A stretch of 64,000 bases of DNA from Escherichia coli (GCF_050920415.1 NZ_CP169309.1); one strand, 5' to 3'. Counted from the stretch's first letter, positions 56,552-58,774 are shown. The notes: generated by a model from the letters alone, not told the origin. Translations and numbers: made by a program.

Positions 56552-58774
56552 TTAGTCCTCGTTTACAACCTTTTGCTGGGCGGCTTTTTTGGCCTGAACG
56601 CGGGCAATAGCCGCGGCAACTGCCGCTTTGCGCGGATCAACCTGTTCTTCTGGTACCGCATTAGCCTGTTGCTGTTCCAGCTTGCGTGCTTTGGCGCGGG
56701 CAATAGCCGCTTCGACGGCAGCTTTGCGCGGATCAACCTGTTCTTCTGGCTCCGCATTAGCCTGTTGCTGTTCCAGTTTGCGCGCTTTGGCACGGGCAAT
56801 AGCGGCTTCGACGGCAGCTTTGCGCGGATCGACCTGTTGTTCTGGTTCCGCATTAGCCTGTTGCTGTTCCAGCTTGCGTGCTTTGGCACGGGCAATAGCG
56901 GCTTCGACGGCGGCTTTGCGCGGATCGACCTGTTGTTCTGGTTCGGCATTAGCCTGTTGCTGTTCCAGCTTGCGTGCTTTGGCACGGGCAATCGCGGCTT
57001 CGACGGCGGATTTGCGCGGATCAACCTGTTCTTCTGGCTCCGCATTAGCCTGTTGCTGCTCCAGCTTGCGCGCTTTGGCGCGGGCGATAGCGGCTTCAAC
57101 TGCGGTTTTACGTGGATCAGCAACGGTTGCTGCGTCGTTAGTTTGCTGCAGTTCTGCCTGTTTCGCTCTGGCTTGCGCTTTACGGGCTTCCCGTGCTGCA
57201 ATAATTGCACTGTTATCCGGGCGTTCGCCCGCTTTAATCACAATAGGCTGTGTAGCCTGGGCCTGTTTCTCTTTCACCCGCGCCAGAGCGGCAGCAATCG
57301 CATCTTTATCTTTGGCTGCAGGTTGAACGGCTGCGCTCTTATGTCGTTCAAGGCGAGCCGCTTTTTCGCGCTCCAGACGAGCCTGGCGCGCTTCGAAACG
57401 CGCTTTGGCTTCTGCGGCGCGCTTTTCTTCCTGACGAATAGCCGCAATTTCAGCTTTTTCCTGACGGAAATATTGCACCAGGGGAATATTGCTCGGGCAA
57501 ACCCACGCGCAAGCCCCACATTCAATGCAGTCGGCAATGTTATGCGTGGTGGCTTTATCGTGTTGCTGACCTTTGCTGAACCAGTACAACTGTTGCGGCA
57601 AAAGATCCGCAGGGCAGGCGTCAGCACAGGCGCTACAACGGATGCAATTTTGTTCTTCCTGTGGTTCGCCAAGCTCATTGGCAGAGGGAGCCAACAGACA
57701 GTTGGTAATCTTTACGACCGGGACATCCAGCCATGGCAAGGTAAAGCCCATTAGCGGGCCGCCCATAATCACCATTTGATCGGCAGAGGGGCAGAATCCG
57801 GCATCATTCAATAAATGACGCACTGGCGTACCCAGCCGTGCCCAGACGTTGCCCGGGCGTGCGATTGCTTCGCCAGTCAGGGTCACGACACGCTCAGTAA
57901 TCGGTTCGCCATCGATAACGGCACGTTTCACTGCATAAGCAGTGCCGACGTTTTGCATTAATACGCCGATATCGGATGAACGCCCGCCATGTGGAACCTG
58001 CTTCCCGGTTAGAATGTAGGTTAATTGTTTAGCACCGCCAGAAGGATATTTGGTTGGAATCACCCGCAGAGAAATATCGTGAGAGTCCGCCAGCACCGCG
58101 CGCAGCATGGAAATCGCCTGCGGTTTGTTATCTTCAATGCCGATAAGAATTTCGCGTGGCTGCAGAATATGCGCAAGAATGCGAATACCCTCTACGACCT
58201 GAGCCGCGCAATCCTGCATCAAACGGTCATCGGCGGTAATGTACGGCTCGCACTCAGCAGCGTTGATAATCAACGTTTCAATCTTATCTCCGCCGCCCTG
58301 CAATTTAACGCCTGTCGGGAATCCCGCACCACCCAGCCCGGCAACACCAAACTGATGAATGCGCTCGATTAACTCTTCGCGACTGCGAGAGCGATAATCG
58401 TCCCAGCCGTCGCGCGGGATCCAGCAGTCTTCGCCATCGGCATCAATAATCACGCTTAATTCAGCTAAAGCTGAAGGATGAGCCGTAGAGTGGGGCGCAA
58501 TAGCCGTAACGGTACCCGAGGTGGGCGCGTGAACTGGCAGCATTTTGCCGCGTCCACGGGTAAGCGGCTGGCCGCGCAATACTTTATCACCGACGCTAAC
58601 GCACAATTCACCTTCAGCGCCAATATGTTGTTTCAGTGGTATGACAAAACGCTGCGCCAGTGGTACCTGGCGCAGGGGCGTACCGTTGGACTGGGTTTTC
58701 ATCTCCGGTGGATGGATGCCGCCGTTGAAATCCCAGATTTTATTTTTTCTGAATGCAGAGAATAACTTAAGCAT
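56552..58774 (-). CDS. rsxC: Rnf-type complex subunit RsxC (Fe-S/NADH-binding) with a repetitive C-terminal tail
   Basis: 740 aa; two CxxCxxCxxxCP ferredoxin motifs; C-terminal 32-aa repeats. Confidence 0.93.
56585..57106. repeat. 96-bp in-frame tandem repeat array (about 5.4 copies) within rsxC
   Basis: Anchor tttgcgcggatc recurs at 56627, 56723, 56819, 56915 and 57011, exactly 96 bp apart. Confidence 0.85.

What the first reader, a model, noticed from the sequence alone, without database searches (positions are those of the whole stretch)
56585..57106. Minisatellite-like 96-bp tandem repeats inside rsxC
Five near-identical 96-bp units, plus diverged partial copies at both ends, encode about 32-aa Ala/Lys/Gln/Glu-rich units (...[31 protein letters not shown]...) in the C-terminal tail of RsxC. 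The high identity between units implies ongoing expansion and contraction, so copy number is probably strain-variable. The function of the tail is not evident from sequence. The array also creates long spurious ORFs in the other frames (56628-57326 on the plus strand, 56563-57210 on the minus strand).
Basis: seen in the sequence. Interest (0 to 1): 0.35.

Follow-up and report, generated by a model that had tools for sequence, protein, structure and literature searches.

The report
Known variable repeat inside rsxC
The 96-bp tandem repeat is real and its copy number does vary between E. coli strains, but it is the long-used strain-typing marker "ms11", so it is ordinary; only the purpose of the protein tail it encodes remains unknown.

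Summary
Window 56642-57121 (minus strand) holds five in-frame 96-bp units, followed by a diverged 87-bp terminal unit. Together they encode the C-terminal tail of RsxC (740 aa, 56552-58774).

In complete E. coli genomes I found alleles with 0, 1, 3, 4, 5, 6, 7 and 11 full units, all in frame. Five units is the commonest (about 59% of a systematic sample). Exact-copy duplications and chimeric junction units show in-register gain and loss.

It is not new. The published primers for VNTR locus ms11 (96-bp unit; Gorgé et al. 2008 Shigella/E. coli MLVA panel) bracket this array. A variable 40-aa RsxC repeat has also been described in Erwinia amylovora.

- The units are not recent copies (synonymous divergence 0.31) and are under strong purifying selection (pN/pS 0.09).
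- An 18-residue basic helix, [18 protein letters not shown], is almost unchanged across all copies and across Enterobacterales. Close variants repeat in Vibrio and Alteromonadales-type RsxC.
- The acidic linkers between helices differ between species but are uniform within each species.

The tail has no solved structure and no assigned function.

The parts
56552..58774 (-). rsxC coding sequence (740 aa plus stop). RsxC is the NAD(P)H-side subunit of the RsxABCDGE (Rnf-type) complex.
   Evidence: ORF found. NCBIfam NF003454 RsxC equivalog, 868.8 bits. Pfam RnfC_N, Complex1_51K, SLBB and Fer4 domains within aa 14-430.
57122..57469 (-). Non-repeated, conserved first part of the tail (aa 436-551). 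It comprises a long helix, a solitary degenerate motif copy ([14 protein letters not shown], aa 491-504, window 57263-57304), and the PDNSA...[11 protein letters not shown] element.
   Evidence: The alignment to A. vinelandii RnfC 8ahx_C extends to aa 498. Residues are invariant across 18 enterobacterial RsxC sequences. The same elements appear in distant RsxC tails. Helices are predicted by AlphaFold2.
56642..57121 (-). Five full 96-bp (32-codon) tandem units, which form the polymorphic VNTR core. Unit boundaries: 57121-57026, 57025-56930, 56929-56834, 56833-56738, 56737-56642.
   Evidence: TRF period 96, 5.4 copies, 91% matches. Register and peptides. Pairwise identity 85-96%. pN/pS 0.093.
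56555..56641 (-). Diverged terminal unit (29 codons, [29 protein letters not shown]), followed by the stop codon at 56552-56554. This unit is retained in every allele seen.
   Evidence: The terminal variant is conserved across genera.
57250..57269 (-). Binding site of the ms11 forward primer, GAAACAGGCCCAGGCTACAC.
   Evidence: Exact match. Primer sequence taken from PMC8215070 and PMC4644529.
56504..56523 (+). Binding site of the ms11 reverse primer, CTGGCGCTGGTTATGGGTAT, located inside rsxD.
   Evidence: One mismatch, at the primer's 5' base. The amplicon is 766 bp: 286 bp offset plus 5 x 96.
56628..57326 (+). Antisense ORF of 232 aa, judged spurious. Its third codon positions coincide with those of rsxC.
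   Evidence: Listed. No Pfam match. Its pN/pS of 0.11 is uninformative because of the shared third positions. The same antisense frame is also free of stops in the Salmonella and Vibrio arrays, as expected from Ala-rich GCN codons.
56563..57210 (-). ORF of 215 aa on the same strand as rsxC but in a shifted frame; spurious.
   Evidence: Listed. pN/pS 4.1 among units. Only sub-threshold Pfam noise.
56447..57754 (+).
   Evidence: Listed. pN/pS 4.2. No Pfam match.

Best explanation
The array is an in-frame coding minisatellite in the 3' end of rsxC. It is the same locus that the Shigella/E. coli MLVA typing panel calls ms11.

**Shown here**
- The unit is 96 bp (32 codons), so any gain or loss keeps the reading frame.
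- Natural alleles run from 0 to 11 full units.
- New alleles arise by in-register exchange between units. Duplicated units are exact copies. Deletions leave chimeric units whose 5' half comes from one parent unit and whose 3' half comes from another.
- Each unit encodes one predicted helix of about 24 residues. It starts at a Asp-Pro cap ([18 protein letters not shown], net charge +4) and is followed by a short acidic, Pro-containing linker ([14 protein letters not shown], net charge -4).
- The basic helix is under strong purifying selection in every copy and is nearly invariant from Escherichia to Erwinia. Close variants occur in Vibrio and Pseudoalteromonas RsxC.
- The linker is specific to each species and uniform within each species (concerted evolution).

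**Inferred**
- The molecular mechanism of change is replication slippage or unequal sister-strand recombination between 96-bp repeats.
- The tail acts as a flexible cytoplasmic appendage that displays several copies of one conserved basic helix on acidic spacers. On this reading it is a multivalent docking or tethering element of the Rsx complex rather than part of the electron path.
- Copy number changes its length and valency without destroying the enzyme.

The binding partner is unknown.
For: **Identity of the locus**
- The ms11 primers bracket the array.
- The published unit size is 96 bp and the offset 286 bp, giving allele 5 for the 766-bp amplicon here.

**Polymorphism**
- Match spans in complete genomes differ by multiples of 96 bp.
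- Alleles with 0, 1, 3, 4, 5, 6, 7 and 11 units were read directly, and all are in frame.
- 1098 of 5424 genomes do not align end to end with the 5-unit query; in the sample these were almost all alleles of 6 or more units.
- Genomes with the same RsxD protein accession next to the array carry different copy numbers:
  - 1, 3 and 4 units.
  - 3 and 4 units.
  - 5 and 6 units.

**Mechanism**
- L008 equals the 7-unit ST131-type array plus exact extra copies of its units 17, 18 and 19.
- The K-12-like L014 equals the K-12 array plus an exact copy of unit 39 and one base change in its first unit.
- L009 and L006 carry chimeric junction units.

**Selection**
- pS is 0.31 and pN 0.029 among the five units. 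For the 18-codon core, pN/pS is 0.05.
- Core pN is 0 with pS 0.32 in Salmonella, and 0 with pS 0.19 in Vibrio vulnificus.
- The core is invariant across genera while the linkers differ.

**Structure**
- AlphaFold2 predicts one helix per unit with low-confidence linkers and no fixed tertiary arrangement (mean pLDDT 74.5, pTM 0.24).
- Solved RnfC structures end before the repeat tail.
Against: - The function of the tail is not shown by anything here or in the literature I could read. Serres and Riley labelled aa 450-740 an "unknown function module".
- The original ms11 paper (Gorgé et al. 2008) was not available. The identification rests on primers and unit size quoted in later papers.
- Allele frequencies come from two systematic samples of 60 genomes, not from a full count.
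- Some extreme alleles could be assembly errors, namely the 11-unit L008 and the 6-unit K-12-like L014.
- The 0-unit allele sits next to a frameshifted rsxD. It therefore does not prove that a working Rsx complex tolerates loss of the whole array.
- Wide tolerance of copy number also fits a largely dispensable appendage.
Confidence: 0.9

Rival explanations
1. The tail repeats are neutral filler: a tolerated low-complexity expansion with no function of its own. On this view copy number drifts freely.
For: Natural alleles range from 0 to 11 units, and from 0 to 5 in Erwinia amylovora. RnfC from A. vinelandii, C. tetanomorphum and A. woodii works without such a tail. No family or structure matches the tail.
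Against: pN/pS is 0.05-0.09 among copies, with substantial synonymous divergence. pN is 0 for the core in Salmonella and Vibrio copies. The 18-residue core is almost unchanged in every copy across Enterobacterales and recognisable in Vibrionales and Alteromonadales-type RsxC. Every allele keeps at least the terminal unit and the upstream solitary motif. Neutral filler would not hold an invariant peptide over such distances.
Confidence: 0.2
2. The array length in this window is an assembly artefact, with the repeats collapsed or expanded.
For: The 570-bp array exceeds short-read length, so short-read assemblies can miscount units. No read data are available for the window.
Against: The 1201 bp around the array are 100% identical to an independent complete genome, MFDS1022581 (H1). 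Five units is the commonest allele among complete genomes, and K-12 MG1655 also has five. The gene is intact and in frame.
Confidence: 0.03
3. The array is a contingency (phase-variation) locus that switches RsxC on and off.
For: It is a polymorphic tandem repeat inside a coding region.
Against: The unit is a multiple of three, and all 15 alleles read whose 3' end is intact (window included) stay in frame with the normal C-terminus. Clones are uniform in copy number, so change is slow rather than hypermutable.
Confidence: 0.01
4. The long antisense ORF 56628-57326 is a real overlapping gene, and its presence constrains the repeat.
For: The ORF is 232 aa. Its pN/pS among units is as low as that of rsxC (0.11). 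The equivalent antisense frame is also free of stops in the Salmonella and Vibrio arrays.
Against: Its third codon positions coincide with those of rsxC, so the low pN/pS follows automatically. Ala-rich GCN codons read as NGC on the other strand and can never produce a stop, which explains the open frame. It has no Pfam match and no promoter-like site in the region. Its peptide is a Cys/Ser/Ala-rich low-complexity sequence.
Confidence: 0.02

Closest known systems
VNTR locus ms11 of the Shigella/E. coli MLVA panel (Gorgé et al. 2008, J Clin Microbiol 46:1026; used in PMC8215070, PMC4644529 and others)
   Same: It is the same locus. The published primers match at 57250-57269 and 56504-56523. The unit size is 96 bp and the offset 286 bp. 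The locus is reported as polymorphic, with alleles 0 and 4.5-7 and a Simpson index of 0.68 in one study.
   Different: No difference in the locus itself. The typing papers I could read treat it as an anonymous size marker. They do not mention rsxC or the encoded peptide; a search for papers holding at least two of ms11, rsxC, rnfC, ydgN and b1629 returned none that contained ms11.
40-aa tandem repeat of RsxC in Erwinia amylovora (Sci Rep 2023, PMC10587187)
   Same: Same gene and same position (starting near aa 553). The conserved core is nearly the same, [18 protein letters not shown]. It varies between strains (0-5 copies) and was proposed as a VNTR marker.
   Different: The Erwinia unit is 40 aa with an Ala/Pro-rich linker (AAQAAPAAADKAAPVQQPAAEQ). 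The E. coli unit is 32 aa with an acidic Gln/Glu-rich linker. The authors suggested a solenoid fold. The AlphaFold2 model here shows separate helices with no fixed packing.
C-terminal long helix of Azotobacter vinelandii RnfC (PDB 8ahx chain C)
   Same: It is also a C-terminal helical extension of RnfC beyond the ferredoxin domain. It aligns to E. coli aa up to about 498. It is reported to contact RnfB and RnfH, and its function is unknown.
   Different: [quoted passage not shown] It lacks the roughly 240 further residues and the tandem DPRK...ARAKARK modules of enterobacterial and Vibrio RsxC.

Membership tests
VNTR / MLVA locus ms11 | Head-to-tail tandem repeat with a 96-bp unit | tested here: met
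   TRF period 96, 5.4 copies, 91% matches. Published repeat size is 96 bp.
VNTR / MLVA locus ms11 | Flanked by the published ms11 primer pair | tested here: met
   Forward primer matches exactly at 57250-57269. Reverse primer has one 5' mismatch at 56504-56523. The 766-bp amplicon equals 286 + 5 x 96.
VNTR / MLVA locus ms11 | Copy number differs between strains | tested here: met
   Alleles of 0, 1, 3, 4, 5, 6, 7 and 11 units in complete genomes. Match spans differ by multiples of 96 bp.
VNTR / MLVA locus ms11 | Coordinates given in the original description (Gorgé et al. 2008) | not testable with these tools
   PMC2268344 is not held in the library.
RsxC / RnfC subunit of the Rnf-type complex | Full-length match to the RsxC equivalog model above its cutoff | tested here: met
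   NF003454 at 868.8 bits against a cutoff of 345; TIGR01945 at 597 bits.
RsxC / RnfC subunit of the Rnf-type complex | Operon context rsxA-B-C-D-G-E | tested here: met
   The window has flanking ORFs of 193, 192, 352, 206 and 231 aa. The identical arrangement is annotated rsxA/B/C/D/G/E in homologous loci.
Contingency (phase-variable) repeat locus | Repeat changes shift the reading frame or switch expression | tested here: not met
   The unit is 32 codons. All natural alleles read are in frame with the normal C-terminus.
Concertedly evolving repeat array | Units more alike within a species than between species | tested here: met
   Linker sequence and period are species-specific and uniform within each protein, with periods of 31 to 40 aa across genera.

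The most novel reading that the evidence does not exclude
The RsxC tail may be a multivalent docking array whose valency can be tuned.

- The invariant basic helix ([13 protein letters not shown][KR]K) is conserved in tandem from Escherichia to Vibrio and Pseudoalteromonas.
- It would bind a specific partner. Candidates are an acidic redox protein, another Rsx/RseC component, or the anionic membrane surface.
- VNTR changes in copy number would then alter how efficiently the complex keeps SoxR reduced, giving heritable strain differences in the oxidative-stress set point.

No paper I could find describes this motif outside the Erwinia typing study.
Probability: 0.15. Interest if true: 0.5.

Novelty: already known. 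Interest (0 to 1): 0.15.

Why it matters
As a polymorphic marker, the array has been used since 2008 to type E. coli and Shigella, so the finding adds nothing new there.

There are two practical points:
- Short-read assemblies and automated annotation handle this locus badly. In the two such cases seen here, PGAP flags the short in-frame alleles as pseudogenes.
- Gene-presence or k-mer association studies can pick up rsxC purely because of copy-number alleles.

The open question is biological. An 18-residue helix is kept almost unchanged, in several tandem copies, across a large part of the Gammaproteobacteria, on a subunit whose solved homologues lack it. Nobody has assigned it a role. A tail-deletion or copy-number series tested for SoxR re-reduction would settle whether it matters.

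Tried and rejected
- **Original ms11 paper.** Reading Gorgé et al. 2008 (PMC2268344) failed because it is not held. I used primers and unit size from later papers instead.
- **Full-length AlphaFold2 model.** With an 18-sequence alignment it gave mean pLDDT 48.9, too poor to ask whether the tail docks on the core. I ran no fold search because the tail-only model has pTM 0.24.
- **PDB searches.** The searches with the tail and with a 20-sequence motif profile found nothing meaningful. The best hit was Vang-like protein at E = 0.048, and the profile search found nothing.
- **Pfam.** It finds no domain in the tail.
- **Representative-library search with the array.**
  - It returned 94 hits.
  - The four high-scoring long hits that I scanned against Pfam (three full-length and one N-terminally truncated) are RnfC/RsxC.
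  - The weak non-RnfC hits (a YadA-like adhesin and three unannotated proteins, the longest 3822 aa) look like Ala/Lys-rich coil similarity and were not pursued.
- **pN/pS test on the antisense ORF.** It cannot judge ORF 56628-57326 because its third codon positions coincide with those of rsxC.
- **Literature on the tail's function.** The searches found only an "unknown function module" label, the A. vinelandii long-helix remark, and no mention in the RseC paper.
- **Whole-collection count.** An exact count of alleles over all genomes was not possible because the search lists at most 60 rows. I used two evenly spaced samples instead.

Full report
**1. The observation**

Tandem Repeats Finder reports a single array at 56601-57119 with period 96, 5.4 copies, 91% matches and no indels. 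The only other tandem array in the whole window is a pair of tRNA genes.

The array lies in a 740-aa ORF on the minus strand, 56552-58774. In that frame there are five full 32-codon units (57121-56642) and a diverged 29-codon terminal unit (56641-55), followed by the stop codon.

The full units are 85-96% identical to each other. The terminal unit is about 61-63% identical to them. Sequence upstream of unit 1 is only 31-36% identical, near the level expected for unrelated sequence, so at the DNA level there is a diverged partial copy at one end only.

**2. The gene**

The ORF matches the NCBIfam RsxC equivalog at 868.8 bits, against a cutoff of 345. Its Pfam domains (RnfC_N, Complex1_51K, SLBB, 4Fe-4S) all lie within aa 14-430.

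The neighbouring ORFs have the sizes and order of rsxA, rsxB, rsxD, rsxG, rsxE and nth. They are annotated as such (rsxA to rsxE) in homologous E. coli loci.

The repeat occupies aa 552-740, at the end of a roughly 300-residue C-terminal extension. Solved RnfC structures (A. vinelandii 8ahx, C. tetanomorphum 7zc6, A. woodii 9eri) end at the equivalent of aa 443-498. No solved chain matches the repeat region.

**3. Copy number in the population**

A 1201-bp query around the array matched 5424 of 5426 complete E. coli genomes.
- In an evenly spaced sample of 60, match spans were 1201, 1105, 1009 and 817 bp, which are steps of 96.
- Genomes with longer arrays broke into partial matches.
- 1098 genomes failed to align end to end.

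I repeated the search with an 11-unit allele as the query and fetched representative loci. Full-unit counts read directly were:

| Full units | Genome(s) |
|---|---|
| 0 | CFSAN004176 |
| 1 | CH4799 |
| 3 | JNEC-KY171, WP8-S17-ESBL-12 |
| 4 | XH992, O104:H4, LCP30S3_I5 |
| 5 | this window, K-12 MG1655, 25DN |
| 6 | O157:H7, F765, FELIX_MS533 |
| 7 | ZH193, isolateI |
| 11 | GCA_001030345 |

Every one of these alleles is in frame with the same C-terminus.

Pooling the two samples gives about 59% with five units, 17% with four, 9% with six and 9% with seven. Alleles of 0, 1 and 3 units are rare.

Clonal groups are uniform: K-12 and its laboratory derivatives have five units, O157:H7 six, and the ST131-type arrays seven.

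However, genomes carrying the same RsxD protein accession next to the array differ in copy number. The combinations seen were 1, 3 and 4 units, 3 and 4 units, and 5 and 6 units. So the array changes faster than its flank, but not fast enough to vary within a clone.

**4. How alleles arise**

- The 11-unit array equals the 7-unit ST131-type array plus exact extra copies of three of its internal units.
- The 6-unit K-12-like array equals the K-12 array with one unit duplicated exactly, plus one base change in its first unit.
- The 0-unit and 1-unit alleles carry chimeric units. The 5' part comes from the first unit, and the 3' part comes from the terminal or last full unit, joined in register.

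This is the signature of homologous, in-register gain and loss. Whether it happens by replication slippage or by unequal exchange between sister chromosomes is an inference, not something shown here.

Some units carry an extra CAA (Gln) codon, which is a nested small slippage event.

**5. Selection on the encoded peptide**

Among the five units in the window, 13 of the 19 variable sites are synonymous changes.
- Nei-Gojobori pS is 0.31 and pN is 0.029, giving a ratio of 0.09.
- For the 18-codon core [18 protein letters not shown] the ratio is 0.05.

The units are therefore old copies kept alike at the protein level, not fresh duplicates. The same holds elsewhere. Core pN is 0 with pS 0.32 in a Salmonella array, and 0 with pS 0.19 in a Vibrio vulnificus array.

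Between the window and K-12, the array differs at 3.7% of sites, against 1.6-2.1% in the flanks.

**6. Comparative anatomy**

RsxC proteins from Escherichia, Salmonella, Citrobacter, Klebsiella, Raoultella and Siccibacter all carry 3-12 tandem modules with a period of 31-38 aa. Erwinia has a 40-aa unit.
- The 18-residue core is essentially invariant in every copy and every genus.
- The linker that follows differs in length and sequence between species but is uniform within a species, which is concerted evolution.
- A distinct terminal variant (…[18 protein letters not shown][DE]) is conserved at the C-terminus.

An exhaustive search of 1.8 billion representative proteins with the array found 94 matches.
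- The four high-scoring long ones that I scanned against Pfam (three full-length and one N-terminally truncated) are RnfC/RsxC.
- Sources name several of the top hits as RsxC of Vibrio vulnificus, Pseudoalteromonas, Celerinatantimonas, Paraferrimonas and Erwinia.
- Their tails repeat (D[PD])[16 protein letters not shown], separated by acidic Ser/Thr/Pro-rich linkers of 10 to more than 70 residues.
- They also share a solitary upstream copy of the motif.

The motif is thus an old feature of RsxC in several orders of Gammaproteobacteria.

**7. Predicted structure and charge**

AlphaFold2 on the tail alone predicts one helix of about 24 residues per unit, with low-confidence linkers and no defined tertiary arrangement (mean pLDDT 74.5, pTM 0.24). 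The full-length model agrees on the helices but is otherwise too poor to use.

From the sequence, the core helix carries a net charge of +4 and the linker -4. Each unit is therefore a neutral block of a basic helix followed by an acidic spacer.

A profile of the motif finds nothing in the PDB.

**8. What is known**

The primers published for VNTR locus ms11 of the Gorgé et al. 2008 panel match at 57250-57269 (exact) and 56504-56523 (one mismatch). The locus is listed with a 96-bp unit and a 286-bp offset, so the 766-bp product here is allele 5. One E. coli study reports six alleles and a Simpson index of 0.68 at ms11.

A 2023 paper describes the equivalent variable repeat in Erwinia amylovora RsxC and proposes it as a marker.

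The function of the tail is not addressed anywhere I could read:
- It was labelled an "unknown function module" in 2005.
- A 2025 review notes only that the long C-terminal helix of A. vinelandii RnfC contacts RnfB and RnfH, with unknown purpose.
- Rsx itself, together with RseC, keeps SoxR reduced.

**9. The other frames**

The ORFs 56563-57210 (-) and 56447-57754 (+) have pN/pS above 4 among units and are not coding.

The ORF 56628-57326 (+) shares its third codon positions with rsxC. Its low ratio (0.11) is therefore automatic. Its lack of stops follows from Ala-rich GCN codons, which read NGC on the opposite strand. The same frame is also open in Salmonella and Vibrio.

None of the three has a credible family match, and no promoter-like site lies in the region.

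**10. Verdict**

The feature is an established typing locus, so novelty is nil and interest is low.

The residual point of interest is the strict conservation of a multi-copy basic helix of unknown role. The evidence favours a functional, multivalent appendage over neutral filler. No partner or phenotype is known, however, and the only 0-unit allele seen sits beside a frameshifted rsxD.

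Noticed in passing
window 19105-19262 (minus strand): This is the only other tandem repeat in the window (period 81, 2 copies). It is two adjacent tRNA-Val(GAC) genes, at 19105-19181 and 19186-19262.
   Followed up: yes
L012 1946-2060 (E. coli XL10-Gold, NZ_CP081008.1): In this laboratory strain rsxC is truncated inside the second repeat unit and joined to a truncated dicB of the Qin prophage region. A large deletion therefore has one end in the array, and rsxD and the genes after it are missing at this position.
   Followed up: partly
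L007 1640-2071 (strain LCP30S3_I5, NZ_CM149862.1): A 216-bp tandem duplication covers the rsxC 3' end and the rsxD 5' end. It leaves an extra rsxD-fragment pseudogene between the two genes. It could be real or an assembly error.
   Followed up: partly
L006 1771-3591 and L009 227-1951: NCBI's PGAP pipeline annotates the 1-unit and 0-unit rsxC alleles as pseudogenes ("missing C-terminus"). Both in fact translate in frame to the normal ...QQKVVNED end. Short natural alleles of this VNTR are thus mislabelled.
   Followed up: yes
L009 1970-3027 (strain CFSAN004176): The only 0-unit allele found sits next to an rsxD annotated as frameshifted. The rsx operon may be decaying in that strain.
   Followed up: no
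L002, L008, L011 and L016 arrays: Some units are 99 bp (33 aa) because of an extra CAA (Gln) in the CAGCAACAG run. This is a trinucleotide slippage nested inside the 96-bp repeat. It explains span offsets of +3 and +6 bp (1108, 1207 and 1399 bp).
   Followed up: yes
L013 (K-12 MG1655), fourth unit: The fourth unit in K-12 reads ...ARKREQQPANA... instead of ...[11 protein letters not shown].... These are two amino-acid changes in one unit that were not seen in the other arrays typed.
   Followed up: no
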